A stretch of 64,000 nucleotides of DNA. Source: an uncultured virus (IMG/VR IMGVR_UViG_3300042945_003839). Its lineage: Duplodnaviria > Heunggongvirae > Uroviricota > Caudoviricetes. Position 1 is the first letter of the stretch. Each line of letters opens with the position of its first letter. Position numbers and translations under genes: made by a program. Location: IMG/VR virus record IMGVR_UViG_3300042945_003839; one strand, given 5' to 3'. Positions 13,754 to 39,776 of this stretch are shown one piece after another. The notes beneath the pieces were generated by a model. The model made no database searches. It was not told where the DNA came from and saw only the letters and a program-made list of their open reading frames with translations.

Positions 13754-14808
13754 TAAATGCTATCCTTTGATATTTGACCTTTCTCTAGCTTTCTTCTTAC
13801 TATTTCAGCCTGAGTCAACAGGCCAGCAACAACCGCATTCCTTGGATCTTTACTCTTTCTGACACAATTTACCTTAAAAGGTAGGTCATATGAACGTATA
13901 GCTGATTCTACTTTCTTTTCAAAACCAGATGGCATACTAGTTCCACCAGCCACCACAACATCAAGAGGTTTGCTAAATTCTGCCTTGACTTCCTTGAACT
14001 TCTTGGCAAATAAAGAAAAAACGTGCTTAAGCATTGCATCGTAGTAGGCATCTAAGGCAAATAGCACATCATCATCCATGTCGATTTTATTAAAATCAAG
14101 TCGTCTTTCTTTTGCCTCCATTACTTGAGCGATTGGCACGCCAGTCTGTTCACTGACCATGCGATCTATCCAATCACCAGAACGAGATACACTCATGCCA
14201 AGTATTGGCATGCCCTTAAAAGCAAGCATGCAATTAGCTCGACCTGCGCCAAAGCTCATGCCTATGCCAGAGTATGGGATTTCTGTACCATCGTCTTCTA
14301 TCACACATGGACGCTCGCTTAATACAACAGCGAGAGCTTCCTCAATTACCTTAACGTTCCAGCCCAGTCTGGAAAACATGCTTTTTAATCTAGCAGCATG
14401 GAATGTGCTGTCTCCACTACTGTCAACACAAGGAGAAGAAATGCAGGTAGTAACAATAGATTCTTCATCTGGAGCTTTACCAAGCTGACTTTCAATGATA
14501 GAAGCAAGAACAATATTCTTCTTTTCTTCGTTTTTGTTCAACACTCCGTCTTGTAGAGGACGCCTTATTTCTACCTTCCCAGGAAATAGCTTAGCAACTT
14601 GAACGCTATCTTCTCCTATAACAAAAACACTTTTACCGTCTCTAACCCATTGCCATCCGTTTCTTGAAAGTATTTCTTCCACATCTTCCGACTCTGGTAT
14701 TTCAACAAACGCATTCCTTATCGTAGAAAAAACAGCATCACCTGACTTGCCAGATTTGGCCATTTGACAGAACATAGTACCGACATCGTAACCTGCTGAT
14801 ATTGACAT
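13753..14808 (-). CDS. Actin-like ATPase (volactin-like family)
   Basis: Phosphate-1 GYDVGTM, RNAFVEI, RRPLQDGVL, connect-1 IEEALAVV, phosphate-2 GIGMSFGAG, SRSGDWID, adenosine VVAGGTS, connect-2 DPRNAVVAG. Confidence 0.85.
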   Translation of the reverse strand: MSISAGYDVGTMFCQMAKSGKSGDAVFSTIRNAFVEIPESEDVEEILSRNGWQWVRDGKSVFVIGEDSVQVAKLFPGKVEIRRPLQDGVLNKNEEKKNIVLASIIESQLGKAPDEESIVTTCISSPCVDSSGDSTFHAARLKSMFSRLGWNVKVIEEALAVVLSERPCVIEDDGTEIPYSGIGMSFGAGRANCMLAFKGMPILGMSVSRSGDWIDRMVSEQTGVPIAQVMEAKERRLDFNKIDMDDDVLFALDAYYDAMLKHVFSLFAKKFKEVKAEFSKPLDVVVAGGTSMPSGFEKKVESAIRSYDLPFKVNCVRKSKDPRNAVVAGLLTQAEIVRRKLEKGQISKDSI

Positions 14809-15331: not shown

Positions 15332-15537
15332 TAGCTTAACCTCATTCTAGGAAGTGGTTGTATTTCTTTTAAGGCTTGAAAATCTATGTCATTCATTTTA
15401 TGACATTCACCACAATACCAATATATTTTTCGTTGTAAAAAATTAAATTCAAGCGATATATTTGCGTCAGTTTGTTTACCACATAAAGCACAAACGCAAG
15501 ATATTTTATGATTATTCTGTATATGCTTTTCTTCCAA
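15331..15537 (-). CDS. Small zinc-ribbon protein
   Basis: CALCG ... CGECHKMN pair of CxxC motifs. Confidence 0.6.
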   Translation of the reverse strand: MEEKHIQNNHKISCVCALCGKQTDANISLEFNFLQRKIYWYCGECHKMNDIDFQALKEIQPLPRMRLS

Positions 15538-18103
15538 ATGCTTTAATCCAATCTTTTATTTCATAAATATGATTACCGACATTTGCGTATTTGTAGGAGA
15601 AATGCGAATTTGCAGTTTTTGGTTTTGCCTCTATGGGACACGAAGAAGACAACAAAGAAAAGATTGCTGCAACTTTTTCGTCACCAGACTCTAATCCGTA
15701 TTTACTTAAAATACCCCTCATTTTTGGAAGAATGTCCATGCATTCTTTCTTAGTCATGTTATATGTTAGACCACGATATGCTGTAGCAGCTAAATCTATA
15801 ACTTGAAGATCGTCTAGGTTATTTATATATGAAGTAATTTCAGGAATAATTTTTTCTTTATATTCTATACTATCAATTAAATTAGATATTTCTCCGTCTT
15901 TCCAAAGACTCCCGATTGCACTGGTAAGCCACTTAGAATCAACGTCTACGCTTCCTTCACTTTTAAAACCTGACTGATTTAATCCTATAAATAAATTATC
16001 AAAAACTTTTTGAGCTTCTTTATGAGAAGCAATAAGATCAGATATTGCCTTCCTTTTATCTGGATCGGATTCTGTTTTTAAAGAGACAGATAATTTTTCA
16101 ATTTCAGAAATTAAAGCTGAATTTCCAATTGTATAAAAACATTCTATAGCCTCATCAGTTAAATTAACTTTTTCTTTTAATAATCTAATCTTGTTAATTA
16201 AATGATTTGATATAAGTACATATACACTTTCAAATGCATTATACTGATTGGGAAATGATTTTTTCCAATCTATGATTTTTTCTTGTGCACTTAGAGATTT
16301 GCTACCAGTATTTTTAATACCAACAATTACTTTGTCTATTAACTCTGGATGTTCATAAAAAAAGCCCCTACATATTGAAGCCAACATTGGTATTGCATTT
16401 TGCTGCTGATAATGTTGTATCAGCTCTGGCTTTACGCTATAAAAAGGCTTCTGAAATACTGCCTGAGATAATTTTTTATTTTCTGCTGGCGTATTTAGCT
16501 CGCCATACATCTCAAAAACATCACCAAGAGAATTTAACAAATCATTTTCATTGTCATCTCCCTGCTTGGTTAATGACAACATCTGTTTAGGTGAAATTTT
16601 TATTTCTAATCCATCAAATTCAATTAGAGACAACTCTTTAAATATTCCTAAAAGTCTACCACTAGAAATATCAACAAGTTCTTTTTTGATCTTTTTACCA
16701 TTATCGATAAATTTTGCATTTATATTTACATAACCATTAGAGCCAGAAAATTTTACAATAAAGTGCTTACCATCCTTGCGAGCATTAGATTTAAGCATTT
16801 TGTCAAATGATAAATCTAAAATTGTTATACCTTTATTTTCTCTATACTCTAAAGAATATTTATGCGCATTCGTAAGCGAGTCTACGTATTGATAAACAAA
16901 ATTAGAAATGGCACTTTCTACATCATTTGATAAACTTAAGATAATCTTAAATGATTCAGGATCTCTGCTACTATCCATAACTGACAAAAGACTACTAAAG
17001 TAAGACTTATATGTTTCCAAAAATTCTATTTGCTTGACAAAGGATTTAGTACCATTAGAAAAAACTGACTCGTCTAAAGCATATTGCAAATTTGCTTCCA
17101 TAGCTTGGCGTCTTTGTTCATTGCCAACTAGTTCAGATTGTGCTGAAGAAAAATCTGATTTACCCAATTCTACGATATCTTGTCCTTCTTCGCCTGCACC
17201 CCTGTCGCCTTTAGCCTTACTCATCTCCACGCTGACCAGCCTTGTAACGTGCCTGTAGAGCTTTTCAAATAAAATACACATTGCTTCAGGATCTTGCTGA
17301 GACAATCTATGAGTAAAGTCTTTAATTAATATTTGTCCAAATGTAAAAAAGCTATTTGATTCATCTCGATATGATGTCCAATGGAGGGGGATTCCACCCT
17401 TGTTAGAGCTTAAGGCACCCCAGTTTTGCAAAATATTTTCACGATATTTTAATAAATCAACTCGCTGGACGCTACTTACCCCTTCAGACACATCAGAAAT
17501 GCCATAAGACAGCATTCTGTCATACATAGATTGAGAGATAGACTTGAGTATTTCTGGATGCAAAGCGTAATAAGTAGCAACAATTGGCGGATGATATCCA
17601 AAAAAATCATCCATCTCAAAGACTGGATTAGTATCATTTGCCAATGTGTCAATAGCGTTAGCATAGATACTACCATGACCCTTACGACCAGCATTATATT
17701 GAACCCATCGAAGAGCGCTTGCGTTTGCACAGTTTTTATATGGCTCGGTATTTATGCTCTTGATATCACTAATAATTTTTCCCTTTAATGAACCAGCCAC
17801 CTTGTTCAATTCTCCAAGCAGAACGACGCTCCAATGCTTTTCTCTTAAACCTCTTTCTTGAGCTACTTGTTCTACAGAGCGCTGCTCTGGCACAAGCTCC
17901 TCAGAATATAGATCACTGGTTAAACTGTCAGCAATAGCCTCAGCACGAGGACTTTCTTTTGTTTGTAGCAGCAGAATTATCTCCTGTAAGCGTTTGTCCT
18001 TAGAGGCAGCTTTGACGCCGAGGCGAGCAATTATCTGCCTAGCCTCTGCCTCTAATTCGCTTATACTTTGAGCTAATTTTATTAAATTAAATGGAGTACT
18101 CAT
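15512..18103 (-). CDS. Large hypothetical protein, candidate internal head protein
   Basis: 863 aa helical; begins MSTPFNLIKLAQ and ends with KTAN/KYAN motifs; preceded by an AGG-N17-TCGAA element. Confidence 0.6.
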   Translation of the reverse strand: MSTPFNLIKLAQSISELEAEARQIIARLGVKAASKDKRLQEIILLLQTKESPRAEAIADSLTSDLYSEELVPEQRSVEQVAQERGLREKHWSVVLLGELNKVAGSLKGKIISDIKSINTEPYKNCANASALRWVQYNAGRKGHGSIYANAIDTLANDTNPVFEMDDFFGYHPPIVATYYALHPEILKSISQSMYDRMLSYGISDVSEGVSSVQRVDLLKYRENILQNWGALSSNKGGIPLHWTSYRDESNSFFTFGQILIKDFTHRLSQQDPEAMCILFEKLYRHVTRLVSVEMSKAKGDRGAGEEGQDIVELGKSDFSSAQSELVGNEQRRQAMEANLQYALDESVFSNGTKSFVKQIEFLETYKSYFSSLLSVMDSSRDPESFKIILSLSNDVESAISNFVYQYVDSLTNAHKYSLEYRENKGITILDLSFDKMLKSNARKDGKHFIVKFSGSNGYVNINAKFIDNGKKIKKELVDISSGRLLGIFKELSLIEFDGLEIKISPKQMLSLTKQGDDNENDLLNSLGDVFEMYGELNTPAENKKLSQAVFQKPFYSVKPELIQHYQQQNAIPMLASICRGFFYEHPELIDKVIVGIKNTGSKSLSAQEKIIDWKKSFPNQYNAFESVYVLISNHLINKIRLLKEKVNLTDEAIECFYTIGNSALISEIEKLSVSLKTESDPDKRKAISDLIASHKEAQKVFDNLFIGLNQSGFKSEGSVDVDSKWLTSAIGSLWKDGEISNLIDSIEYKEKIIPEITSYINNLDDLQVIDLAATAYRGLTYNMTKKECMDILPKMRGILSKYGLESGDEKVAAIFSLLSSSCPIEAKPKTANSHFSYKYANVGNHIYEIKDWIKAFGRKAYTE

Positions 18104-24941: not shown

Positions 24942-26189
24942 ATGGCATATACATACGACACAACAAGCTATACAAAAGGCTTTATGATGCTAGGTTCATC
25001 AAAAATAAGAACGCTAGAAAGCCTCACGGACAATGTAAAAAAGCTAACATGTAGCGAAATAAGCTCACACTATTATGATACTGACAGATATCCAATAAGC
25101 GGCATCCCAATGCTTGCCTATAGAATGGTAAATGGAAAATCAGCTTTAAGAGTAGTAGATGTACAAGCAATTACTGGGTTACAAGGCAGCTTTGGCACTC
25201 TTACTGACAAAACTGTATTAAATGGATGCTCAGTGCAAGTTGCCACAAATGGACTAAATGATTATATATTGCATTTACAAAAACTTACGGATTTAGACTA
25301 TGTTCCAATGAATAAGTCCACAGACTATTCTGGTATGCAATGGCTACTTGATGAAGACCATTCTTTAGCCATAGTAACAACGGAACAACAGCCAAGAGCT
25401 TTTAAGAAATTTATGTTTGGACACAAGCTAATATTGTGTGGAGAATACTCAGACGGCTTTTCTCCTGTAGCCTTAATTGATATTGAATCTGCGTCTTCGT
25501 CTTATAGCCCAGCAGTTACTAGCGGCTTGATATTGCACTTAGACGCAAGTAATTCTGCAAGCTATCCTGGGTCTGGAACAACGTGGACAGATATAGTTGG
25601 AGGATACAACGGTACATTAACAAACGGACCAACATTTGTTAACGAAGATGGAGGGGTAATTAGCTTTGATGGAGATAACGACTATGTCAATATAGCTGAC
25701 AACGCAGCACTGAGAGGATCAACAACTGGAGAACTGACCATTCAAATATGGGCAAAAATATCCTCATTCACAGCAGGAGATGGATTGTTTGGAAAACAAT
25801 ATGGAGTGACTAAGGACTATGATGGTTACAGTCTTGCAATACAAACAAACAATGTCTTAAGACTGCAAATGAATGGACTGACTGTAAATGGTGGATATAA
25901 CAGTGCAAACAATGTTTGGAGTTTAAATACGTGGCATTTGTTTACTGCCGTGATAGACTTTGGAGGGTCTCCAAAAGCTTACGTGGATACAACAAATGTT
26001 GTTTCTGTAAATAATGCAGAAAACAGTATTCCAAACAACGACGCCTCTTTAAGAATAGGTCAGAGCATACAGGAAGGTACTCCATACCCTGTAATGAAAG
26101 TAGGAGCATTTTATGTTTATAATAGAGCATTAAGTGCTGCAGAAATTACAAGCAACTACAATGCAACAAAAGCAAGATTTGGATTATAA
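24942..26189 (+). CDS. LamG/concanavalin A-like domain protein
   Basis: C-terminal half GLILHLDASNSASYPGSGTTWTD...FDGDNDYV...YNRALSAAEITSNYNATKARFGL is paralogous to 59212..61198; only credible plus-strand gene. Confidence 0.85.
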   Translation: MAYTYDTTSYTKGFMMLGSSKIRTLESLTDNVKKLTCSEISSHYYDTDRYPISGIPMLAYRMVNGKSALRVVDVQAITGLQGSFGTLTDKTVLNGCSVQVATNGLNDYILHLQKLTDLDYVPMNKSTDYSGMQWLLDEDHSLAIVTTEQQPRAFKKFMFGHKLILCGEYSDGFSPVALIDIESASSSYSPAVTSGLILHLDASNSASYPGSGTTWTDIVGGYNGTLTNGPTFVNEDGGVISFDGDNDYVNIADNAALRGSTTGELTIQIWAKISSFTAGDGLFGKQYGVTKDYDGYSLAIQTNNVLRLQMNGLTVNGGYNSANNVWSLNTWHLFTAVIDFGGSPKAYVDTTNVVSVNNAENSIPNNDASLRIGQSIQEGTPYPVMKVGAFYVYNRALSAAEITSNYNATKARFGL

Positions 26190-26192
26190 AAT

Positions 26193-27761
26193 TTATTGAG
26201 AAAACTGTTTTAGCAAGAAATTTTTTGCTTCATTCTTGTCTTTTATTTCACCACTATCTTGAGCTTCAGCTAAAGCATTTTGCATTACATTTATAAATCC
26301 AGTTTTAGGATTTTTATCAGGAAACAAATCCATAATTTCTTTTCCATTCAAAAGCGGCTTAGTGCCCACCTTAGATCTTTCTTCAATAAACTTTTCGATT
26401 GTCTTGATTTGATCATGCTTCCCCTTGACTTCCTCATCATAATCAACTCCACCTTTACTCATAGAATCTGCTATCGCATGCATAAAAGTCAACCACCACA
26501 ATCTTGTTTTGGAATCATCGCCAATACTCATCGACTCAAAATCTCGTAAAAATTTACCAATAGATTTTGGACTTTGCATTTCTCCATGAGGACGCATATG
26601 TTCTTGAACAACTTTAGATATTAATTCTCTTTCATTTCCAAAACCAAGTCTCTTCAGTATTTCTACAGCAAGTTCAGCAGAGACATTCTCATGACCTGGA
26701 TAAGAAGAAGCATTAGGGTTGCTTTTACTTGGACGCACAATATTTGGGTCCATTTTACCAAAATCATGGAATATAGCTGCCATAACAGCAACCATTCTTT
26801 CTTTGTCTGAAACTCCAGCATCAATGAGCATATTATTTAAATTTTTTACTACATGAACAGTATGCTCAAGCAAATTATACTGATGATGAGGGTTGTTTTG
26901 ATCCATATGAATAGGCTTAAATCCATAAAGTTTTTTATGATGAAAGACTGGTAAATACAGACCACTTGAAAAGAAATGCCTTATAGCATCAGCAGGACGC
27001 TTACCAAGAACTAGCTTTTCAAGTTCTTTTCTTGCACGCTCTGGAGCGACTTTATCAAGATAAGACTTATGAACTTCTGGATGCTTCAATGCTTCAACCA
27101 ACTGTTCATCAAGCTCAAAGCCATACATTTGAGATAAAAAACGCAATGCCCTTAATGCTCTTAACGGATCTTCTTTTAAAGTTACTACAGGATCAACTGG
27201 CGTTCTTAAAATACCATTTTCTAAATCTTTTACCCCGCCTACATAGTCTTCGATTTTACCAGTATCAATATTATAATAAATTGCATTAATTGTTAAATCC
27301 CTTCTTTTTACGTCTTCTGTAGGATCATTTGTTGCAGATATTTCTGGAACTCTACTGGTAGGATTATAAATCTCTGTGCGCATAGGCACAAATTCTACCT
27401 TAATTCCATTAATATCTATAGCGCCTACTTTTAGTCCAGCACTTGTTTTCTTTTCACCCGGTTGAGTTTTTTCTAAACTTACTGCGTAAGGATCTTTTGT
27501 GTGCTTGCCTGCATTTTGTTCAATATCATAACGTCTAACGGCTTCTGCCACAGAGTTGCCATCACCTCCGCTAACAGCGATATCTATGTCGTCAGATACT
27601 TTGCCAAGCAACCTGTCCCTAACCCATCCTCCAGCGATCCTCAATTGAACACCTGAAGCGTATGCATCTCTGCCAGCCTTAATTACATTAAATATAGCAT
27701 GCTCTTCAGGAGTTAACTGAATAGATTTAGATATTTTGTCAGCAACTTTATACCAATTCAT
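26193..27761 (-). CDS. cca: Class II tRNA nucleotidyltransferase (CCA-adding enzyme) with HD domain
   Basis: AGGWVRD, DIDIA, EDxxRRDLTIN, DPLR..R..RF, ER...EL, HD-domain EHT...HDFGK...GHE...EHM...AD; flexible loop RTEIYNPTSRVP intact. Confidence 0.92.
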   Translation of the reverse strand: MNWYKVADKISKSIQLTPEEHAIFNVIKAGRDAYASGVQLRIAGGWVRDRLLGKVSDDIDIAVSGGDGNSVAEAVRRYDIEQNAGKHTKDPYAVSLEKTQPGEKKTSAGLKVGAIDINGIKVEFVPMRTEIYNPTSRVPEISATNDPTEDVKRRDLTINAIYYNIDTGKIEDYVGGVKDLENGILRTPVDPVVTLKEDPLRALRALRFLSQMYGFELDEQLVEALKHPEVHKSYLDKVAPERARKELEKLVLGKRPADAIRHFFSSGLYLPVFHHKKLYGFKPIHMDQNNPHHQYNLLEHTVHVVKNLNNMLIDAGVSDKERMVAVMAAIFHDFGKMDPNIVRPSKSNPNASSYPGHENVSAELAVEILKRLGFGNERELISKVVQEHMRPHGEMQSPKSIGKFLRDFESMSIGDDSKTRLWWLTFMHAIADSMSKGGVDYDEEVKGKHDQIKTIEKFIEERSKVGTKPLLNGKEIMDLFPDKNPKTGFINVMQNALAEAQDSGEIKDKNEAKNFLLKQFSQ

Positions 27762-27781
27762 AGAAGTATATATTAATACAT

Positions 27782-27818
27782 AAAAAGCAACCCGCCCTCC
27801 TTTCGGAGAGCGGGTTGC
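27782..27818 (-). terminator. Rho-independent terminator after the major capsid gene
   Basis: Minus strand GCAACCCGCTCTCC-GAAA-GGAGGGCGGGTTGC-TTTTT: 14-bp stem, GAAA tetraloop, U-tract. Confidence 0.9.
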
Positions 27819-27848
27819 GATTTAAAAAACCCTATATTTACCTAGCTA

Positions 27849-28721
27849 TTAGGATGCACGGTAAACTTCGATCTTCGAGATGGCGTAATCGTTCATAACA
27901 ACGATGCCGACTTCTTCGTAGATTACCCAACCAAGACGGAGCTTCTTTGGATCATCTGCTGGAAGGACTGTGATGTCCTGGCGGATGGGGAAGGCACCGA
28001 CAGTGTCGGGAGAAGCGCACACCAATACGGTCTGAGCGTCAAGCTGGGAGCTGACGTGGATGTCAGCAGTCCAGAGGTGACCATAGAGACCGGTGGTGAG
28101 GATTTCACGAGTGGTAGCCTCATCATAGAAGGTCTTACCAAACACGCGGAAACGAGCATACTGAAGGGGGTGAGCAACAACCTTGCTTGCGACAAGATCG
28201 TGAGTCTCAATCAAACGGTATGCAACGTTGAGCGAATCAGTGGTCAAGTCACCGGTGTTACCAACGACTTGATCATTGCGAGCATCAGCAGCAGCAATCA
28301 GAGCGCTGAAGATATTGCGATCTTCTTCCTTCTGAATGGCTTCCTTTGCCTTGATCTGAGCACGGTCAACGATATAGAAGCGACGTGCCTTGATCTCGCT
28401 CAAACGAATTGTTGGGTGAGCAGCGATCTCAAAAGTTGGAACGAGGACTTCCTCGCCTTCCTGAATCTGATCGGGAACTGCACCCTGACGGGCAATAACA
28501 GTTGCTGTAGAGGCAACATCGCGCTCATAGCGGGGAAGAGCGCCTTGTGGGAGCTCATCTACCATGAGAAGCTTGCGGCCTACAGCCTGATACTCTAGTG
28601 AACGGCGGATTGGCTCCACCATGGCCTGTGCGAGAGCAGTGCGGCCTTCCTCGGTTGCGAGGGCTTGGGCAATCACTGCCTCCTTTTCATCATAGGTCAA
28701 ACCATCTTTATTTAGTGACAT
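27849..28721 (-). CDS. Major capsid protein (HK97 fold)
   Basis: Likely start MSLNKD (AAAGGA SD), ~290 aa; GRKLLMVDELPQGA, PTFEIA..P, EED..IF motifs; strongly biased codon usage; follows protease and decoration genes; followed by a terminator. Confidence 0.85.
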   Translation of the reverse strand: MSLNKDGLTYDEKEAVIAQALATEEGRTALAQAMVEPIRRSLEYQAVGRKLLMVDELPQGALPRYERDVASTATVIARQGAVPDQIQEGEEVLVPTFEIAAHPTIRLSEIKARRFYIVDRAQIKAKEAIQKEEDRNIFSALIAAADARNDQVVGNTGDLTTDSLNVAYRLIETHDLVASKVVAHPLQYARFRVFGKTFYDEATTREILTTGLYGHLWTADIHVSSQLDAQTVLVCASPDTVGAFPIRQDITVLPADDPKKLRLGWVIYEEVGIVVMNDYAISKIEVYRAS

Positions 28722-28785
28722 GTTTGTATATCCTTTCAAAGTTTTATTTTGTTATATTGATCTCAACAAGAATACCAATATAAAA

Positions 28786-29385: not shown

Positions 29386-32300
29386 TCATTTGAATGCATT
29401 ACGTAACTTAGCAGCCTCGCTCTCATCTGCCATCTCGACCTGCTGTTGGAGACGGAATAGAGAAGCAATTTTACCTTTCAGATCAGACGAAGCATTTTTG
29501 TGACTGCTTACTTCGTTGATTACGAGTGGCTGCTCAACTCCACTCGATGCAACCTTCAGACCCTTGGTAGCGCTTGGGCGATTAAACATCGCCTTTTCGA
29601 GGTCACGAAGCTGAGATACCTCGTATCTCTGCAACTCCGCGAGCTTTGCTGGCATCTGGTCGGCTTTGATTATGCCGTTTTCTACCATTTTGGCAGCAAG
29701 CTTAATTGCAACCTCTTTGTTGGCACTACTGGCCTTCTTAGATTTATAGTTTTGTGCACCACCCTGGCCGTTTTGACCACCGGTGATTTGATTTTGCTTT
29801 TCGCCCTCAAGTCCAAGCTCAGATTCATGGCCAAGCTGACCATCTCCGGCTGGGATACTTGGAGAATCTACCTTGAAGCCCTCACCCTTCTCAGAAGAAA
29901 GAGGCTTGCCTCCATTTTCTGGAACATCAGGAGTTTCGGCAGAGAAACCTTCTTGAGTGCTGTCCTTGTGTGGCTTACCGTTGGCTATCTGACCTAGATC
30001 AGCATCGTCCTGCACGGTGTGAACGGACAAGCCCATGTCTTTTGCTAACTTAGACAAAGCTTGATCGAACATGTTGGAAGCCTTGCGATACTTTCCAGTG
30101 TGATCCTTGCCTTGACCAGCCTGTCCGCCAGTGATTGCATTTTGCATTTCACCCTTGTTTGGCTCGCCTTCAAACTGACCATCACCGTATGGAATTTCTG
30201 GAGCACTTTCCTTGAATCCCTCTCCGTGCTCAGCAGCCAATGGCTTACCGCCATTGCTTGGAACATCGGGAGATTCGGCTGAGAAGCCCTCTTGAGTGCT
30301 ATCCTTGTGTGGCTTGCCGTTTGCAACTGCACCGACAACGTCTTGTGCACTTGTTTGTTCGAGCTTGCCAGACTTGGCTTGCTTGTTAAGAGCAGCACGT
30401 ATAGAGTCAATATCAATGTTTAACTTATTGACACCGACTATACGTCCACGACGAAGAGAATGAGCTTCCTTTTCAAGGCGCTCTATCTCATCATTCTGAG
30501 AAGCGCTCTTTGGAGCTTCCTTCATCATATCAGACTCTTCCATCATAGATGGACCTTCGGTATCTTCTGCTGTATCCATTTCGCCCTCCTCTTGTTCTGG
30601 CATTTCGGACATTTCTGACTCTTCAGATTCTGGCTCCATGCCTTCTTCTGATTCTGGCATTTCTATTTCAACATCAAGATCTGCATCCTCACCCATATCA
30701 GACGAATCAGTGTTTTCGAATTCAATATCTAAATCGAAACCTTCATCATCTGATTCGTCGCGGTAGCCTTCTGGCATTTCTTCTTCAGTTGGCTCATCCA
30801 TGTCAAGATCTTCTTCCATATCCTCGCCAGAATCCATACCAGACATCTCTGGCATTTCACCTTCGTCTCCCTCAGGAGAATCAGAGAAATCTTCAGAGTC
30901 AAATGGATCTTCTTCATCCATTTCTCCATCACCCATAGCAGACTTGATGGACTGATCTTCAGAAAGAGTTTCTGCATAAATTTCTTCTGCAGACACGTAC
31001 TTAGACTTAAGATCTTCACATGCCTGAGCAGCCTTATTCAAAACTAGACCACTTCTGACAAAATCTTCTACGCACTCATGCATTGCATCACGCTCTGACC
31101 AAGCAGATGCGATCTTGTTAGCAAGCTTAGTTGTATAGACGTTTTCGTCAGACAAAGATCCGCAAACACATTCTGCGAGATTCTTACCCTCACATGGACC
31201 ACTTAGTGCGAGCGCATTCTCACCGTATCTGTTTGCAAGCTTTTCAATGCATCTTGACATTGGGAATTCACCATGAACAGTAAATGCTTGCTTGAAGAAT
31301 CCCTTAACGTCATCAGAAGATGCTTCTTTGATAGTTCCAAGAAGACCCTTATCATTGATGGTGTTAAGAGCAGCTGCCTTATCCTGCATTGACATTCCAT
31401 CAAAAGAGTCCTCTGAAATACCAACTGCAGAAAGAGCCTTGATTATTGCATTCTTCTTGCGCTCACATGGAGTGCAAGAGGCTTGCTTAGCGACAGGAGC
31501 CCATTCCCATTGAGCATAAACATGCTTTGGATCGTCAGTCTTTGCAGCAAGTCTGACCTTATAGATTTGACCACTATCAAGGCACTGCCAGTGCTCCTTA
31601 TCTAACTTGACGGTGTTACGTTCACCACTGATTGGACTGATACTGCCAAGCTCGCCCTTAGAAGCAAACTTCTTCATGGTATCTGCGCTGATTTTGGTAG
31701 AAGCCGCAACTGCCATTCCACCCATTCCTGGCATGCCGCCAGGAGCTGGAGCGCCCATACCCATGTCTGGAGCAGGAGACATTGCACCTTCGCCACCCAA
31801 TCCCTTTTCTGGAGACTCTGGACTTGCAGTAACGTCTTCTTGATCAACATCACCATCTGTGATCTTGTCAAGTAAAGATGCATCAGGTACAATCTTGATT
31901 GTATAATTTAAGCCGCATCCAGGACCATTGCACTTGGACTTACCGCCAAGAACATCAACATCCTGTCCACCGCAGACAACGCAAACTGCGCCTGGTGGCT
32001 TTGGCTTACTTTCTTCTGCCTCACCGCCCATATCACCACCAGCCAAAGGATCTGCACCCATTGGAGCAGCAGCTGCGGGATCAACAGGAGCGCCTGCAGT
32101 TAAAGCCTCAACTCCTGGAGCACCAGCTGGAGGAGCTCCACCAGGCAACTGCATGCCCATGCCCATACCTGCAGGATTCAATCCAGCTGGCATTTGACCA
32201 CCAGCAAGCTGAGCCTGCTTTTCGAGCTTGTCTAAATCAGCAAGCAAAGAAGCTCTCTTAGTTTGAGATGACTCCTCAGCAACTACCTTTTCTGCAGGGA

Positions 32301-35157
32301 CAGAAGAAGCCCACTTTTCAAAAGCTGCCTTTTCCTGATCGGTAACCTTGGAAGCAATTTTGCAAGTTGCTTCAACAAGACCATTGTCCTCATCAACATC
32401 AACTGCGACTGGAATAATGTCTACGTTTTGACCAAGGTTTTCGTTCACCATGGTCTGAGCAAACTTGTGCACTGCTTCGATGAAGTCTTTGCCAGAGGAA
32501 ACCTCCATGCCAAGATCGTCTTCTGCACTCATGCAAACCTTGATGATTCCGTCCTCTGGCAAGGACATTTCACTAAATGCCTTGCGGAACATGTCGGAAT
32601 CATCTTCTGAAGATTCAGATGTTGCGTTTTCATATCTTTCAACTGCTAATTCTTCTGCTTGCTGCATTGCCAACTTGTTGTTAGCAACGAAAGCAAGAGC
32701 AGAAAGAACTTCTTCAGCTGAAGAAGATTCTAGATTATCACCAACTGCAGCAAGCACAGCATCAACGGGCTCAACTCCATACACTTCAGATGCAACCTTA
32801 GAGAAATTTGCAAGACGACTATTGTTTACCTTACGAGACTCAACAGCCCATGGAGCTGCATTCATGGCAACAACAATCTTTGCTTTATTTTGTCTTGAAG
32901 AGTCAGAGGTGATAAAATCAACTGTGTTTTGAATGTCTTCGGCACCAACTCCATAGAAAGCCATTGCATCAGCGATTGCTCCCTGTGCCTGCTTAATAAG
33001 ATCTTGAGCAGAAGCCTTCTTCATGGACTTGCCAGCAAGCTGACCTTCAGTGGTTACGGTTGGCTCAGTCCAACTAAATGTCTTCTGCAACATTTCAAGC
33101 TGACCCTGTTTGGCAACAGAAGTCCAATCAGATGGAATGTTTGCAAAGACCTCTCTACTAATGTCGTTCCATTGAGCTTCTGTAATTACTTCAGGGAAAG
33201 ATCCCCAACGAGCCATGAATCCTCCGGTCTTGGAGTTCAAAGTAGCTTCAACAACTGTTTCGTATGCAGTACCTTGACGAGGAGTGGCTGAAGTTCCGCC
33301 AACATCACTGTAAGACTTAGCAGCACCGAGCTGCTCCTTACTTTCAGTGGTGGCAGTGGGAGCCTCTCCCTTGCGAGCATGAATTCCCTTTACGCCAGAG
33401 AGCTGTGCCTCTGTAGTGACTTCATGTGCGTCACCGGTACGTGCCTGTGCAACTTTGTTTTGATTTGAGCTTTCCATGGATGTAATTGACTCCTCTGAAG
33501 TATTGTTCAAGTATGAATTTAAAATTTTACGAGCTGCCTGTTTTGGATCATGATTAATCATGTTTTGAGTATCTGCATCGAAAGAATCTATGCTGGACCA
33601 TTTCATTAAGCGATCACCCTTAAGATGTGCTATATGAGTTTCTCCATCATTGTCTGAAGAAATAACTATTGTATCATCACCTTGTGTGAACTTGTATCCT
33701 GAATTTTCTGACATAAATTCTCCGTTAATGTATATACGATTAGCTAGACTATTTAGCCTATTTGTTATACTATTAGATATTTTAATAAAATCCTTTGCGG
33801 AATCTGCTTTTACTGGAATAAAATTTGGCTTTGTTACCCTTCCAACCTCATCTCCAAATTCTTGGATCTGAGGATTAGCTGCCATAGGCACAGATTTTAA
33901 CATGGGCGCTGCCGTTTGTGCTGGCATAGCCATACTTGGCTGAACTGATGGCACAGCAGCAGAAGAAGGCTGAGGCATAGCAGAAACTGGCATTTGCACA
34001 GCAGACTGAGGCTTAGTCATAGGACTTGCAGGAGCATTTGTACCGTATGCTATCTGAGACTCAGTAGGACTTGGCAAAACTGCATAGCCCATTTCAACTA
34101 ATTCATCTGATATTTTCTGAATATCAGAACAAACTTTAACTATGTCTGACACATATTCTAAACTTACCTTGCTTTTTTGAGCCATCATCGAACGCGCAAC
34201 TCTTTCAAGCTGGTTCATGGCATCATTTAATTCATTAATTTCTTGCTTTCCAGCAGCCTTGTGAAGACTACACTGGCCAGAAGAACATTCCATGCCAAAA
34301 GAAGAATCGCTATCCATTGATGTGCCAATTTTAGCAAGAGTTTCTCTAAGATCAGCTACCTTTTTAAGCAACCCAGTTGGATTTATAATGTCACTTACAA
34401 GACAATCATGACACGCAGGATTAACAACAAAGCTGTCTTCTATGAATTTAACACCGTAATTATGTTCAAAAATCTGCTGACTTGCATATTTGTTTAATTT
34501 CTTCTTGCCCTTTTCACATCCACAAACAGGACATGGTTCATCTCCAGCATTTGCACTTTTATGATATTCGCACTCATGCTCACCAGTAAAATTTTTCTTT
34601 TTACGCTCTTTAATATGAGAACAGTATTCCTTAGCATTAGCAGCACGAGTGTGACAAACAGAACAGCAACTGTACTTAACACTGCAACCCATACTGCTTC
34701 CAGTTACGTATCCAGCCTCAATGCCTCTGGCCAAGCGTGGATAAGCAACCTTGTCAACCATATTAATTGTATAAATACCTCCACGATCTTCATCCCACCA
34801 AGCATGAACAACTTTACCACGTGCCTTTTCTACGTCATCGTTTTGATGATTTACAAATACAGGAACACCTATGAAAGTTTTAGCAGCTTTTTTCAGTTCA
34901 TTTTCACTAAAATAGTCTCCGTTGTCATTAACTTCATCTTTTTTAATTGCAAAAACTTTTACAAACAAATGATCTGGATTATCTTTAATAGCTGCTAAAA
35001 TATCAAAACCACCAAGATCTATTGCTTTTACGTGATCCTCAAATGATTTTTCTTTTGAAGCAAATTTGGTAATAGGAGATAGATTTATTTCATCCCAATT
35101 AGATGGGACGTTAAGAGCTTCTATTTGTCTTTCAGTTGTTATTGTAAATTTATCCAT
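29386..35157 (-). CDS. Prohead maturation protease fused to a giant scaffold/internal-protein polyprotein (1923 aa)
   Basis: N-terminal HK97/assemblin-type protease (NDNGDYF, FVNHQ His, ARGKV, GSSMG Ser, EDSFV..PA) with Zn-finger insert; then low-complexity, Cys-rich, acidic and repeat segments. Confidence 0.8.
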   Translation of the reverse strand: MDKFTITTERQIEALNVPSNWDEINLSPITKFASKEKSFEDHVKAIDLGGFDILAAIKDNPDHLFVKVFAIKKDEVNDNGDYFSENELKKAAKTFIGVPVFVNHQNDDVEKARGKVVHAWWDEDRGGIYTINMVDKVAYPRLARGIEAGYVTGSSMGCSVKYSCCSVCHTRAANAKEYCSHIKERKKKNFTGEHECEYHKSANAGDEPCPVCGCEKGKKKLNKYASQQIFEHNYGVKFIEDSFVVNPACHDCLVSDIINPTGLLKKVADLRETLAKIGTSMDSDSSFGMECSSGQCSLHKAAGKQEINELNDAMNQLERVARSMMAQKSKVSLEYVSDIVKVCSDIQKISDELVEMGYAVLPSPTESQIAYGTNAPASPMTKPQSAVQMPVSAMPQPSSAAVPSVQPSMAMPAQTAAPMLKSVPMAANPQIQEFGDEVGRVTKPNFIPVKADSAKDFIKISNSITNRLNSLANRIYINGEFMSENSGYKFTQGDDTIVISSDNDGETHIAHLKGDRLMKWSSIDSFDADTQNMINHDPKQAARKILNSYLNNTSEESITSMESSNQNKVAQARTGDAHEVTTEAQLSGVKGIHARKGEAPTATTESKEQLGAAKSYSDVGGTSATPRQGTAYETVVEATLNSKTGGFMARWGSFPEVITEAQWNDISREVFANIPSDWTSVAKQGQLEMLQKTFSWTEPTVTTEGQLAGKSMKKASAQDLIKQAQGAIADAMAFYGVGAEDIQNTVDFITSDSSRQNKAKIVVAMNAAPWAVESRKVNNSRLANFSKVASEVYGVEPVDAVLAAVGDNLESSSAEEVLSALAFVANNKLAMQQAEELAVERYENATSESSEDDSDMFRKAFSEMSLPEDGIIKVCMSAEDDLGMEVSSGKDFIEAVHKFAQTMVNENLGQNVDIIPVAVDVDEDNGLVEATCKIASKVTDQEKAAFEKWASSVPAEKVVAEESSQTKRASLLADLDKLEKQAQLAGGQMPAGLNPAGMGMGMQLPGGAPPAGAPGVEALTAGAPVDPAAAAPMGADPLAGGDMGGEAEESKPKPPGAVCVVCGGQDVDVLGGKSKCNGPGCGLNYTIKIVPDASLLDKITDGDVDQEDVTASPESPEKGLGGEGAMSPAPDMGMGAPAPGGMPGMGGMAVAASTKISADTMKKFASKGELGSISPISGERNTVKLDKEHWQCLDSGQIYKVRLAAKTDDPKHVYAQWEWAPVAKQASCTPCERKKNAIIKALSAVGISEDSFDGMSMQDKAAALNTINDKGLLGTIKEASSDDVKGFFKQAFTVHGEFPMSRCIEKLANRYGENALALSGPCEGKNLAECVCGSLSDENVYTTKLANKIASAWSERDAMHECVEDFVRSGLVLNKAAQACEDLKSKYVSAEEIYAETLSEDQSIKSAMGDGEMDEEDPFDSEDFSDSPEGDEGEMPEMSGMDSGEDMEEDLDMDEPTEEEMPEGYRDESDDEGFDLDIEFENTDSSDMGEDADLDVEIEMPESEEGMEPESEESEMSEMPEQEEGEMDTAEDTEGPSMMEESDMMKEAPKSASQNDEIERLEKEAHSLRRGRIVGVNKLNIDIDSIRAALNKQAKSGKLEQTSAQDVVGAVANGKPHKDSTQEGFSAESPDVPSNGGKPLAAEHGEGFKESAPEIPYGDGQFEGEPNKGEMQNAITGGQAGQGKDHTGKYRKASNMFDQALSKLAKDMGLSVHTVQDDADLGQIANGKPHKDSTQEGFSAETPDVPENGGKPLSSEKGEGFKVDSPSIPAGDGQLGHESELGLEGEKQNQITGGQNGQGGAQNYKSKKASSANKEVAIKLAAKMVENGIIKADQMPAKLAELQRYEVSQLRDLEKAMFNRPSATKGLKVASSGVEQPLVINEVSSHKNASSDLKGKIASLFRLQQQVEMADESEAAKLRNAFK
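29761..30327 (-). repeat. Two ~75-aa direct repeats within the polyprotein
   Basis: ANGKPHKDSTQEGFSAE.PDVP.NGGKPL..E.GEGFK...P.IP.GDGQ...GE.QN.ITGGQ.GQG at ~30327-30110 and ~29988-29761. Confidence 0.9.
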
Positions 35158-37925: not shown

Positions 37926-38147
37926 TTACACTCTTGTTACTTGAACTTTACCTAAGTCAAACCCGCAATTAACGCATTTATTCTGATTTTTAGAAGAATC
38001 AGCAGAATTGTCAGACTTACATACTGGACAGATTTTTTTCTGTCTAGAATATATATTACCTTTATCGGGTTTCATAAAAGAGAAAGCACGGTCTAGGGCT
38101 CTATTAAATGAAGAAGACCCTTGACCGGCAGCAGTTTTAAGACTCAA
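37926..38147 (-). CDS. Zinc-ribbon protein (possibly the frameshift extension of 38144..39151)
   Basis: CPVC...CVNCG; weak TTG start with no clear SD. Confidence 0.6.
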   Translation of the reverse strand: MSLKTAAGQGSSSFNRALDRAFSFMKPDKGNIYSRQKKICPVCKSDNSADSSKNQNKCVNCGFDLGKVQVTRV

Positions 38148-39139
38148 CTGTTCTTTTTTTTTAAGTTAAATGGACCTATGGACAATTTATTAAATGTTGC
38201 TGGATTAACAAGCTTGTCCTCATTGCCTCTCAAAACTTCCATTCTGGACTCCAGTGTTGAATATTGAGGCAACCAAGGACGGCTGCGAGTACCTGGAAGC
38301 AATTGCAAATTGTTACCCTTTGGGATGTTGCGATTTACTTCAAATCTTCTGTTAATGTAACCACCAACATAATTTCCTTCTTCGTCTCGATATGGAGAAT
38401 TATACTTATCCATAACGTTACCACGCCATATTGCCTCAAAATCAATATCTAAAACATCATCAATTTTTAATCCAAAACCTTTATTTTGTTCAATAAGATG
38501 AAGACCACTCTGTATATCTCTACTAAATGGACTCAAAGAAGTTTGACTAGGGCCTGATATAATAGAACTATGCATAATACTCTTATGCTGAGCAGTCTTT
38601 GTTAAATTAAAAGTTTGAGAAGAACTTTGCTTCTTTTGAGAAGCAGCAATTTCTTTAGCTATTTTCATAACATGCAATGTACTTGCGGTAGCTATGTCCA
38701 TTTCACTTTCCTCGTTCTTTGGTGGATGTATTTTTGCGTACATATCAAACAGTCTGTTAGCAATATCTACTGCATCTTCTGAATCAGATGGAACTTCAAA
38801 AAATTGAGAAAGTCCAGCCTTAAAGTCGTCAGCTATTTCTGTTGACCCGACAGATTGAGAAAAATATTCATTCCATGCAGAATTCATTGAAGACTTAATA
38901 TCTCCAGATGAAAAAGATTTTAATTTTTCGTACATTTGTACATGATTCTCAAACACAGGAACTGATATGGTTTCGATATCTGTATCAATATCTTTACCAG
39001 GAGACATAAGCAAACCAGCATCTGACTGTGGCTCCTTAGTCATTTCCAAATCGCTAAACTCTTCAGCCCCCTGAACTACAGGAGGAGAAGTCATCTCTAT
39101 CTGCTTTTGTGCAAATTTAGATAAATTGAATTTAGGCAT
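38144..39139 (-). CDS. Hypothetical head-associated protein
   Basis: Likely start MPKFNLSKFAQ (GGAG SD); internal FNLTKTAQ; ends PFNLKKKNS on an A9 run. Confidence 0.65.
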   Translation of the reverse strand: MPKFNLSKFAQKQIEMTSPPVVQGAEEFSDLEMTKEPQSDAGLLMSPGKDIDTDIETISVPVFENHVQMYEKLKSFSSGDIKSSMNSAWNEYFSQSVGSTEIADDFKAGLSQFFEVPSDSEDAVDIANRLFDMYAKIHPPKNEESEMDIATASTLHVMKIAKEIAASQKKQSSSQTFNLTKTAQHKSIMHSSIISGPSQTSLSPFSRDIQSGLHLIEQNKGFGLKIDDVLDIDFEAIWRGNVMDKYNSPYRDEEGNYVGGYINRRFEVNRNIPKGNNLQLLPGTRSRPWLPQYSTLESRMEVLRGNEDKLVNPATFNKLSIGPFNLKKKNS

Positions 39140-39776
39140 CTTTATCTCCAAAAAGTTTGTCTATTGCTTTTTCTCGAGAAGACTTAGATTTTTCAGGCTG
39201 AGGAGAAGAAATTTTTGACCATAAAGAATCAACTATATCAGTAGAGCGTAAAGATTTAGATATCTTTTTTTCTTCTACTGCAGCTACTTTTTCTTCAACC
39301 TGCACTTTATCATCAATTCTCTCAAATACATCTTTGTCAAAAATACTGACACGATCTTTACGAACATGACCATGAGAACCAGCGTTCTTAGATGCTGGAG
39401 AAAAATTACCTTTAAACCTAGACAAATCTTCTGCAATTTCTTCTGAAACGCTTTGCTTTAAATTAGGCAAAAATTCAGATTGAGCCTGAGACTTTAAAGT
39501 AGTAATCTTGTCCGTAGCCACTGATTCTGGAGAAAATATAGATCTAGAAGAATACTTCCCGACATAATTGTCAGAAGGTACGCTAGCATCACTTGAAGAA
39601 GAACTTCTAGTAATTTTATTATTTAATAATGTACCATCAGACTGAGAAGCTTTTTTACTTGTCTGTTTTCTAAAAAAACTTTCCAACACAGCTGGGTCAA
39701 CAGGCGTGCTTTTTTCTTGCGAAGCAGTGTCTTGAAAAATTGAAGATTTGCTAGCGTCTTTGTTTTTAAAAATCAT
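39132..39776 (-). CDS. Hypothetical Ser/Lys-rich head-associated protein
   Basis: 214 aa low complexity; repeated SIF motif; coupled to its neighbours. Confidence 0.6.
   Translation of the reverse strand: MIFKNKDASKSSIFQDTASQEKSTPVDPAVLESFFRKQTSKKASQSDGTLLNNKITRSSSSSDASVPSDNYVGKYSSRSIFSPESVATDKITTLKSQAQSEFLPNLKQSVSEEIAEDLSRFKGNFSPASKNAGSHGHVRKDRVSIFDKDVFERIDDKVQVEEKVAAVEEKKISKSLRSTDIVDSLWSKISSPQPEKSKSSREKAIDKLFGDKDA

What the first reader, a model, noticed from the sequence alone, without database searches (positions are those of the whole stretch)
26193..27761. CCA-adding/HD enzyme with a head-type leader, encoded right behind the capsid gene: possibly a virion-delivered tRNA repair enzyme
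Seen: a complete class II CCA enzyme with HD domain directly after the MCP terminator, with an N-terminal MNWYKVA leader ahead of the catalytic domain that matches the head KxA motif. Established: phage CCA enzymes usually accompany tRNA clusters; the HD domain removes 3'-end phosphates; some defences attack tRNA 3' ends (CapRel pyrophosphorylates them after sensing a major capsid protein). Inference: the enzyme may be packaged and injected, or co-expressed with MCP, to repair tRNA 3' ends against such defences. No tRNA gene was seen in this window.
Basis: partly seen in the sequence, partly recalled or inferred. Interest (0 to 1): 0.8.

Follow-up and report, generated by a model that had tools for sequence, protein, structure and literature searches.

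The report
Address-tagged tRNA CCA-repair enzyme, huge phage
A very large uncultured freshwater phage encodes an intact tRNA 3'-end (CCA) adding and repair enzyme right behind its capsid gene, and the enzyme starts with a short virus-only peptide tag that related phages put on many unrelated proteins; whether the tag loads the enzyme into the virus head is plausible but untested.

Summary
ORF 26193-27761 (-) is a complete class II CCA-type tRNA nucleotidyltransferase with an HD domain. It starts 26 nt after a strong, conserved terminator behind the major capsid gene.

Residues 1-9 (MNWYKVADK) lie outside the fold. They are conserved in viral relatives. They were found in 0 of 58 cellular homologues.

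The tag M-N-W-[YF]-K-x-[AS] is a portable peptide-level signal. It heads 12 and 18 unrelated ORFs in two related contigs. In G005 these cluster in a roughly 40-kb island between the capsid gene and the CCA gene.

The head motif is really K-x-A-[S/Q]. The enzyme has K-V-A-D, so the match is partial.

Packaging and injection remain unshown. The window is about a sixth of a roughly 400-kb genome. Relatives with the enzyme carry 7-16 tRNA genes, and in the two contigs examined none of 27 encodes its own CCA. The enzyme therefore has a sufficient conventional role.

The scan noted the same tagged enzyme before on other DNA. Verdict: a real, moderately interesting new variant of a known kind, with the virion-delivery reading only partly supported.

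The parts
26193..27761 (-). Gene for the 522-aa class II tRNA nucleotidyltransferase (CCA-adding type) with an HD phosphohydrolase domain
   Evidence: ORF. Pfam PF01743, PF12627 and PF01966 all score above their cut-offs. PHROG 2244. AlphaFold2 pLDDT 89.6. Foldseek top hit is the A. thaliana CCA-adding enzyme 9kma at TM 0.72, followed by A. aeolicus 3wf*.
27735..27761 (-). Codons 1-9, MNWYKVADK: the virus-only N-terminal tag (core M-N-W-Y-K-x-A)
   Evidence: pLDDT is below 50. M, N/T, W, Y, K and A are kept in P0001-P0005 while the neighbouring residues vary. 27 of the 120 listed homologues carry the tag at the N-terminus and 49 beyond residue 480. 0 of 58 cellular homologues carry it. Synonymous codons vary freely.
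27204..27644 (-). Nucleotidyltransferase head domain (res 40-186), with GGWVRD (44-49) and DIDIA (58-62)
   Evidence: Pfam PF01743, E 1.4e-25. G44, G45, R48, D49, D58 and D60 are invariant in 20 sequences.
26577..26870 (-). HD phosphohydrolase domain (res 298-395)
   Evidence: Pfam PF01966, E 4e-9. H300, H332, D333 and D432 are invariant.
27779..27818 (-). Intrinsic terminator of the capsid-gene transcript: 14-bp stem, loop GAAA, T-run
   Evidence: Conserved with compensatory changes in L002 and L001, where it stays with the capsid gene. RNA contigs of three studies end at 27829-27831, a weak hint.
27849..28739 (-). Major capsid protein
   Evidence: phrog_2522, E 1.1e-63. 53% identical to phage G gp27.
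29386..35157 (-). 1923-aa head protease (N-terminal domain) fused to a scaffold-like protein; carries 21 K-x-A-[S/Q] sites
   Evidence: phrog_18299 head maturation protease at res 62-192. 21 sites against 2.1 expected. 19 of 21 are kept in G001, with the x residue varying.
24942..26189 (+). Convergent LamG-domain gene that ends 3 nt from the CCA gene's stop, closing the transcription unit
   Evidence: Pfam Laminin_G_3, E 5e-17.
38144..39151 (-). Head-region protein with the related leader MPKFNLSKFAQ and an internal FNLTKTAQ
   Evidence: Both sites recur in the G001 orthologue, and the internal one in G005.
15512..18103 (-). 863-aa protein starting MSTPFNLIKLAQ (same leader class)

Best explanation
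The gene encodes a working tRNA 3'-end enzyme of a huge freshwater phage related to Bacillus phage G. By CheckV scaling of relatives the genome is roughly 400 kb.

The class II nucleotidyltransferase half adds or rebuilds the 3'-terminal CCA of tRNAs. The HD half is a metal-dependent phosphohydrolase that could clear blocking 3' phosphates. Its everyday substrates are most likely the phage's own tRNAs, which in relatives are all transcribed without CCA, plus host tRNAs with damaged ends.

The enzyme also carries a flexible 8-9-residue N-terminal tag, M-N-W-Y-K-x-A. This tag is not part of the enzyme. It is a portable, virus-only peptide signal that related huge phages place on dozens of unrelated proteins, or at the junctions of fused modules.

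The most likely role of the tag is a sorting or processing label tied to head assembly. Its K-x-A core resembles the K-x-A-[S/Q] sites of the head protease/scaffold. If so, some enzyme would be loaded into the capsid and delivered with the DNA.

- Shown: enzyme identity and intactness; that the tag is real, portable and virus-specific; its link to the capsid-adjacent gene island; the terminator.
- Inferred: CCA versus partial (CC or A) specificity; HD activity on tRNA; every step of capsid loading, cleavage and injection.
For: Enzyme:

- Domains and family assignments.
- Catalytic residues are invariant in 20 homologues.
- Confident model, with CCA-adding enzymes as best structural matches.
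- Intact orthologues down to 56% identity.

Conventional need:

- G003, G004 and G005 carry 7, 16 and 14 tRNA matches and phage G carries 17.
- 0 of 16 (G004) and 0 of 11 (G005) tRNAs encode CCA.
- A review passage lists the CCA-adding enzyme among the commonest RNA-repair nucleotidyltransferases of jumbo phages (PMC7824862).

The tag is a real signal:

- It is conserved while its flanks vary.
- It is disordered.
- It is selected at the peptide level: AAC/AAT 14:10, all four Y/F codons, AAA/AAG/CGT, and no shared upstream DNA.
- It heads 12 ORFs in G004 and 18 in G005. Their Pfam content is unrelated: LysM, GNAT x2, a 5'-nucleotidase-like protein, Tad6 at E 4.5e-35, a Hydrolase_2-like protein and a methyltransferase-like protein; 19 of 29 had no hit.
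- It sits at CCA-GNAT junctions, and about 100 aa before the C-terminus in 45 of 82 homologues of 600 aa or more.
- The strict form MNWYKxAQ hits 47 sites, clustered on large IMG/VR contigs.
- It is absent from 58 cellular homologues.

Head link:

- G005 keeps the frame TerL-portal-scaffold-MCP ... CCA-GT4-S8, with 13 of 62 island genes tagged against 1 of 84 outside.
- K-x-A-[S/Q] enrichment and conservation.
- 12 of the 30 tags end K-x-[AS]-[SQ], counted by hand from the listing.
Against: - No virion, cleavage or injection data exist for this phage or any tagged relative.
- The enzyme's site is K-V-A-D. D follows K-x-A once in 83 head-protein sites. In its closest orthologues that position drifts (N, D, A, G, K).
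- In the window and in the 94-kb contig of its closest relative, only this gene is tagged. A cargo system is therefore not evident in this lineage.
- Internal tags keep a preceding Met. They may simply be inherited from gene fusions.
- The gene sits behind a strong terminator, with no sigma-70-like promoter found in the gap.
- No NCBIfam equivalog cut-off is reached; the best is TIGR02692 at 151.6 bits against 438.8. CCA, CC or A specificity is therefore not assigned.
- Phage G has neither tag nor orthologue.
Confidence: 0.6

Rival explanations
1. An ordinary cytoplasmic phage tRNA nucleotidyltransferase. It matures the phage's CCA-less tRNAs late in infection. The N-terminal tag serves something other than the capsid, for instance docking to another phage factor, timed degradation or solubility, and the position next to the capsid gene is an accident of a variable gene island.
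For: - 27 of 27 tRNAs in G004 and G005 lack encoded CCA, and relatives carry 7-16 tRNAs.
- Adjacency to the capsid gene is not conserved. L001 has a 1.8-kb mobile-looking ORF in between. G005 has about 39 kb in between. L003 and L004 have no capsid gene within 10 kb.
- The tag's last position does not fit the head motif.
- A strong terminator lies upstream.
- The tag loosely fits the ClpX N-terminal recognition pattern (polar, hydrophobic, hydrophobic, basic, hydrophobic). That pattern is recalled from memory and comes from no call.
Against: - Tagged genes cluster beside the head module in G005.
- The tag shares K-x-A with the protease/scaffold sites.
- ClpP was found only in phage G, which lacks the tag, and not on the tag-bearing fragments. 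Those fragments are only 23-36% complete.
- This reading gives no account of why unrelated enzymes, a Tad6-like anti-defence protein and cell-wall-binding or lytic proteins share one tag.
Confidence: 0.3
2. The enzyme is packaged and injected in order to undo defence damage to tRNA 3' ends (pyrophosphorylation by CapRel-type toxSAS, or clipping of CCA tails), with the HD domain removing the blocking phosphates.
For: - Defences that attack the tRNA 3' end exist. Cas12a3 clips CCA tails, and its authors state that viral countermeasures are unknown (PMC12851939, passages).
- toxSAS enzymes pyrophosphorylate the CCA end, and SAH hydrolases reverse this (bioRxiv 10.1101/2021.04.30.441581, abstract and passages).
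- In G005 a tagged neighbour is a Tad6-like Thoeris inhibitor, so tagged proteins include anti-defence functions.
- The HD residues are intact.
Against: - No defence system, host or virion data are linked to this phage.
- Activity of a CCA-enzyme HD domain on 3'-pyrophosphate is untested.
- All the objections to packaging listed for the best explanation apply here too.
- The enzyme is sufficiently explained by CCA-less phage tRNAs.
Confidence: 0.1

Closest known systems
Phage-encoded class II tRNA nucleotidyltransferases (PHROG 2244; annotated in e.g. Vibrio, Klebsiella and Escherichia phages and Tunturiibacter phage Tunturi_5)
   Same: Same domain family and presumed job. 402 phage records hold a relative. 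A review lists CCA-adding enzymes as common RNA-repair enzymes of jumbo phages (PMC7824862).
   Different: All are below 32% identical. No tagged start was seen in the only cultured relative. The N-termini of the other cultured-phage enzymes were not inspected.
Cellular CCA-adding enzymes: A. thaliana (PDB 9kma), A. aeolicus class II enzyme with an HD-type body (3wfo-3wfs), E. coli multifunctional Cca (NF008137)
   Same: Same fold: TM 0.72 to 9kma and 0.53-0.58 to 3wf*. Same motifs GGxVRD, DxD, RRD..TINA and EDxxR. HD domain present, as in E. coli Cca and A. aeolicus.
   Different: Sequence scores are far below every equivalog cut-off. The first 9 residues are extra. 0 of 58 cellular homologues have the tag.
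Capsid targeting sequence (CTS) of phage T4 internal proteins IPI-III and Alt, removed by prohead protease gp21; also the protease-processed ejection proteins of giant phages SPN3US and phiKZ
   Same: A short N-terminal peptide on otherwise unrelated proteins, resembling the head protease's site. Giant phages are known to pack large protein cargo: the abstracts of PMC7411985 and PMC10052503 were seen in the listing, and the T4 details are recalled.
   Different: The sequence is different (M-N-W-[YF]-K-x-A, against T4's leader ending in Glu). Here the tag also occurs internally and near C-termini. No packaging or cleavage has been shown.
Herpesvirus assemblin-type cleavage sites (V/L-x-A|S), for the K-x-A-[S/Q] head motif
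   Same: Ala followed by Ser, at many sites of a protease-scaffold polyprotein. The assemblin consensus is recalled, not tested.
   Different: Lys at the -3 position. Q is allowed after Ala. No cut site has been measured.

Membership tests
Class II tRNA nucleotidyltransferase / poly(A) polymerase superfamily (Pfam PF01743 + PF12627) | Head domain with GGxVRD and the DxD carboxylates | tested here: met
   PF01743 scores 90.5 bits against a cut-off of 23. GGWVRD lies at 44-49 and D58/D60 are invariant.
Class II tRNA nucleotidyltransferase / poly(A) polymerase superfamily (Pfam PF01743 + PF12627) | Neck and body with the nucleotide-selecting EDxxR motif and the RNA-binding region | tested here: met
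   EDPLR lies at 197-201; D198 and R201 are invariant. PF12627 scores 32.3 bits against 22. The fold matches CCA-adding enzymes.
CCA-adding (as opposed to CC-adding, A-adding or poly(A)) subtype | Equivalog-level sequence match, or biochemical specificity | tested here: inconclusive
   No NCBIfam equivalog reaches its cut-off: TIGR02692 151.6 against 438.8; NF009814 116.2 against 290; NF008137 84.5 against 451; pcnB 91 against 305.65. The loop between the DxD and RRD motifs is full length, which by recalled literature favours complete CCA addition. Activity is not testable here.
Multifunctional CCA addition/repair protein (NTase + HD phosphohydrolase) | HD domain with H...HD...D metal ligands fused C-terminally | tested here: met
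   PF01966 scores 37.2 bits against 22 at res 298-395. H300, H332, D333 and D432 are invariant.
Multifunctional CCA addition/repair protein (NTase + HD phosphohydrolase) | Phosphatase, 2'-nucleotidase or cyclic phosphodiesterase activity on tRNA ends | not testable with these tools
   Needs an enzyme assay.
T4-type capsid targeting sequence / protease-processed head cargo | Short N-terminal peptide shared by unrelated proteins of the phage | tested here: inconclusive
   Met in relatives: 12 tagged ORFs in G004 and 18 in G005. In this window and in G001 only the CCA enzyme carries it.
T4-type capsid targeting sequence / protease-processed head cargo | Tag ends in the head protease's cleavage consensus | tested here: inconclusive
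   The presumed head motif is K-x-A-[S/Q]. The enzyme has K-V-A-D. 12 of 30 tags in relatives end K-x-[AS]-[SQ] (hand count). The protease's real specificity is unmeasured.
T4-type capsid targeting sequence / protease-processed head cargo | Protein present, trimmed, in purified virions; tag sufficient for packaging | not testable with these tools
   There is no cultured tagged phage. Phage G lacks both tag and orthologue.

The most novel reading that the evidence does not exclude
M-N-W-[YF]-K-x-A is the address label of a previously undescribed capsid-loading system in a clade of phage-G-like huge freshwater phages. The label is read and clipped by the assemblin-like head protease at K-x-A.

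Through it these phages would inject a kit of ready-made enzymes: a tRNA CCA/HD repair enzyme, a Tad6-like Thoeris inhibitor, acetyltransferases, nucleotidases and cell-wall enzymes.

The CCA/HD enzyme would then be the first known viral answer to defences that clip or block tRNA 3' tails (Cas12a3, toxSAS).
Probability: 0.2. Interest if true: 0.85.

Novelty: new variant of a known kind. Interest (0 to 1): 0.55.

Why it matters
Phage CCA-adding enzymes are ordinary. A portable terminal address tag on them, and on dozens of other proteins, is not described in the papers I could search. Motif strings gave only noise, and the capsid-targeting and jumbo-phage listing held no such tag.

If the tag does load proteins into the head, it would define the injected arsenal of an uncultured clade of huge phages from sequence alone. 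It would also give a transplantable packaging signal. And it would point to pre-made tRNA-end repair as a counter to tRNA-tail-targeting immunity, for which the Cas12a3 paper says viral countermeasures are unknown.

If the tag does something else, it is still a clear short linear motif, absent from every cellular homologue checked, whose partner can be sought.

Tried and rejected
1. Whole genome: none is held, so tRNA content of this phage itself could not be checked. Relatives were used instead.

2. Complex prediction of the head-protease domain (res 1-260) with the enzyme's first 60 residues. The first attempt met a full queue. The job was re-sent unchanged and collected. Result: no verdict (score 0.01, mark 0.34), which is neither for nor against.

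3. RNA runs. Four metatranscriptome runs were laid as contigs. The habitat labels (lake or freshwater) come from run records of DNA holders that may be the source.

4. Nucleotide-level explanation of the tag (translation or promoter signal): rejected. Synonymous codons vary and upstream DNA shares no motif.

5. A promoter in the 26-nt gap between terminator and start: none was reported by the sigma-70 scan. My manual look found no properly spaced hexamers.

6. ClpXP degron idea: ClpP is found only in phage G. This gives no support, but the fragments are incomplete.

7. Phage G as a proxy: it has a different gene (gp28) after the capsid gene. It has only a 31%-identical NTase segment at 396 kb and no tagged starts. 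Its particle proteomics are therefore uninformative here. That paper's supplementary tables were not opened.

8. Literature search for the motif letters returned only unrelated hits.

9. The fHe-Kpn01 paper concerns a distant NTase-like toxic protein, not a virion CCA enzyme.
Full report
**What is there**

The minus-strand ORF 26193-27761 encodes 522 aa. Pfam finds three domains, each above its cut-off:
- a PolyA_pol head domain (res 40-186, E 1.4e-25);
- the PolyA_pol RNA-binding region (214-273);
- an HD domain (298-395, E 4e-9).

PHROGs assigns it to family 2244, tRNA nucleotidyltransferase (E 1.1e-44). No NCBIfam equivalog reaches its cut-off; the best is TIGR02692 at 151.6 bits against 438.8. 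The subtype (CCA, CC or A adding) is therefore not assigned by sequence.

In an alignment with 19 homologues the catalytic residues are invariant:
- GGWVRD: G44, G45, R48, D49;
- the DxD carboxylates D58 and D60;
- R153, R154, D155, T157 and N159;
- the EDxxR residues D198 and R201;
- the HD ligands H300, H332, D333 and D432.

AlphaFold2 on that alignment gives pLDDT 89.6 and pTM 0.86. Foldseek's best solved match is the Arabidopsis CCA-adding enzyme 9kma (TM 0.72). The Aquifex aeolicus 3wf* enzymes follow, then the Bacillus, Thermotoga and human CCA-adding enzymes. The enzyme is intact and of the CCA-adding kind.

**Surroundings**

The window is a structural block, all on the minus strand. 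In order it holds:
- large terminase (45838-47709);
- portal (35638-37920);
- a 1923-aa protein whose N-terminus is a head maturation protease (29386-35157);
- a 189-aa protein;
- the major capsid protein (27849-28739);
- the CCA gene;
- a convergent LamG gene on the plus strand, ending 3 nt from the CCA stop;
- a GT4 glycosyltransferase, an S8 protease and PhoH;
- tail genes.

Between capsid gene and CCA gene lies a hairpin with a 14-bp stem and 10 GC pairs, then TTTTTAT. The CCA start codon follows 26 nt after the stem. The hairpin is kept in L002 and L001 with compensatory changes, and in L001 it stays with the capsid gene.

RNA contigs from three metatranscriptome studies cover the capsid gene and all stop at 27829-27831, just before the stem. 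This is a weak hint that the capsid transcript ends there.

**Which phage**

No genome is held. The capsid protein is 53% identical to gp27 of Bacillus phage G, the best hit among 233 phage records. Related IMG/VR contigs of 94 and 147 kb are rated 23% and 36% complete by CheckV. That implies a genome near 400 kb, so the window is about a sixth of it. DNA runs that hold the stretch are labelled lake or fresh water.

**tRNA genes**

The window and the 94-kb contig G001 of its closest relative have none. Contigs with the orthologous enzyme have 7 (G003), 16 (G004) and 14 (G005) matches to the tRNA model, and phage G has 17.

ARAGORN finds 16 tRNAs in G004 and 11 in G005. None of these 27 is followed by an encoded CCA. 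In this clade every phage tRNA examined needs CCA addition, which is a sufficient conventional reason for the gene. A review passage lists CCA-adding enzymes among the commonest RNA-repair nucleotidyltransferases of jumbo phages (PMC7824862).

**The leader**

Residues 1-3 and 5-9 have pLDDT below 50. Homology to the plant enzyme begins at residue 10. Only MNWYKVADK is therefore extra; the LTPEEHAIF helix that follows belongs to the fold.

Among the five closest homologues the starts are MNWYKVAD, MNWYKSAN, MNWYKIAD, MNWYKFAA and MTWYKKAG. M, N/T, W, Y, K and A are kept while their neighbours vary.

Of the 120 listed homologues:
- 27 have the motif within the first 25 residues;
- 49 have it beyond residue 480;
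- 4 have both;
- 48 have neither.

In 45 of 82 homologues of 600 aa or more, the motif lies about 100 aa before the C-terminus. It is usually preceded by a Met and followed by a conserved module of about 95 aa. In five CCA-GNAT fusions it sits at the junction.

In bacterial and archaeal genomes the relatives are mostly 25-35% identical. None of the 58 in which I could find the GGxVRD frame has the motif in the 70 residues before it. In total 80 loci were fetched, and 22 had no frame that my regex recognised.

**The leader is a portable tag**

In the fetched loci the same start heads many unrelated ORFs. On whole contigs I found 12 such ORFs in G004 and 18 in G005. Of these, 29 were scanned against Pfam (one, split over two fetched pieces, was left out), and 19 had no hit. 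The hits were:
- the two CCA/HD enzymes;
- a LysM protein;
- two GNATs;
- a 5'-nucleotidase-like protein;
- a methyltransferase-like protein;
- a Hydrolase_2-like protein;
- a homologue of the Thoeris inhibitor Tad6 (E 4.5e-35).

The tag's codons vary synonymously (AAC 14, AAT 10; TAT, TAC, TTT and TTC; AAA, AAG and CGT), and the upstream DNA shares nothing. Selection is therefore on the peptide. The strict form MNWYKxAQ alone matches 47 sites in IMG/VR, clustered on large contigs with up to 6 per contig. Phage G has none.

**Link to the head**

Counts are 21 in the protease/scaffold (2.1 expected), 5 in the portal (0.3 expected), and an excess in small proteins between portal and terminase. 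Over all 53 ORFs the total is 51 against 11.8. After K-x-A in ten head-region proteins, S follows 30 times, Q 15 and D once, out of 83 sites.

In the G001 orthologue, 19 of the 21 scaffold sites are kept while x often changes. In G005, at 37% identity, 5 are kept in place and 12 exist in all.

Two proteins of the window start MPKFNLSKFAQ and MSTPFNLIKLAQ, and these leaders recur in G001 and G005 orthologues. They align with NWYKVAD as N-[LW]-x-K-x-A. The enzyme ends that pattern in D, however, and its bare KxA count (2) is below the shuffle expectation of 3.2.

G005 has a capsid protein 78% identical to the window's. It keeps the frame terminase, portal, scaffold, capsid ... CCA, GT4, S8, but with about 39 kb between capsid gene and CCA gene. 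With a greedy ORF call, 13 of 62 genes in that island are tagged against 1 of 84 elsewhere (Fisher p 6e-5). In the window the island is reduced to the CCA gene. In L001 an untagged ORF with DUF7487, REase-like and GNAT domains is inserted there. In L003 and L004 no capsid gene lies within 10 kb.

**Reading**

The enzyme almost certainly works on tRNA 3' ends, and the phage's own CCA-less tRNAs suffice to explain it.

The tag is a real, portable, virus-only signal. Four things make a head-assembly sorting or cleavage label the best guess:
- its K-x-A core;
- its flexible terminal position;
- the clustering of tagged genes beside the head module in G005;
- the kinds of proteins tagged (anti-defence, cell-wall, nucleic-acid enzymes).

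This is analogous to the T4 capsid-targeting sequence and to the protease-processed ejection proteins of giant phages (listing and abstracts; T4 details recalled).

No step of loading, cutting or injection is shown. The K-V-A-D ending, the terminator, the lack of other tagged genes in this lineage's visible 110 kb or so, and the Met kept before internal tags all weaken the case for this particular gene.

The defence link is inference. Defences on tRNA 3' ends exist: Cas12a3 and toxSAS, which SAH hydrolases reverse. Nothing ties them to this phage.

**Earlier notes of this scan**

The scan describes the same tagged enzyme and the K-x-A-[S/Q] code on other DNA. I took these as leads and re-tested the claims here. 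They are not independent support.

Noticed in passing
window 13753-14808 (-): A 351-aa protein matches Pfam Volactin (PF25216) at E 3e-56 over its whole length. It is an actin-like protein encoded among the structural genes of a huge phage.
   Followed up: no
window 35638-37920 (-): The portal ORF (760 aa) carries a C-terminal DUF559 / REase_MTES_1575-like endonuclease region (res 616-714; PHROG HNH endonuclease). Three of its five K-x-A-[S/Q] sites lie in that C-terminal part.
   Followed up: partly
window 29386-35157 (-): The 1923-aa protease-scaffold fusion has 21 K-x-A-[S/Q] sites (2.1 expected). 19 of them are conserved in G001 with the x residue varying. This is a candidate cleavage code of the head protease.
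   Followed up: yes
L001 8302-9951 (+): In the closest long relative a 549-aa untagged ORF (DUF7487, REase_MTES_1575-like, GNAT) is inserted between the capsid terminator and the CCA gene. It looks like a mobile endonuclease-type insertion.
   Followed up: partly
G005 (L058 555-980, -): A 141-aa ORF starting MNWYKQAQ matches the Type I Thoeris inhibitor Tad6 (PF25188, E 4.5e-35). It is an anti-defence protein carrying the tag.
   Followed up: no
G004 (L050 12323-16805, +): Three consecutive ORFs of about 500 aa each start with the tag (MKSNWYKK, MKINWYKT, MTWYKSAQ) and have no Pfam hit. They may be a tandem family of tagged proteins.
   Followed up: no
proteins P0044-P0119 (C-terminal ~95 aa): Long forms of the enzyme (800-900 aa) end in a conserved module of about 95 aa (consensus ...GMxVRDRRKG.A.PQEYG.V...NK..I.W...LSxIVAEV), directly after the internal tag. 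They also have an unassigned N-terminal region of 200-300 aa.
   Followed up: partly
window 27831-28779: Capsid-gene RNA of this phage or close relatives is present in freshwater metatranscriptome assemblies of at least three studies. The phage's DNA recurs in many lake-water runs.
   Followed up: partly
window 59832-61198 and 24942-26189: Three LamG (concanavalin-like) domain proteins match the C-terminus of a PHROG virion structural protein. One of them is the convergent gene abutting the CCA gene.
   Followed up: no
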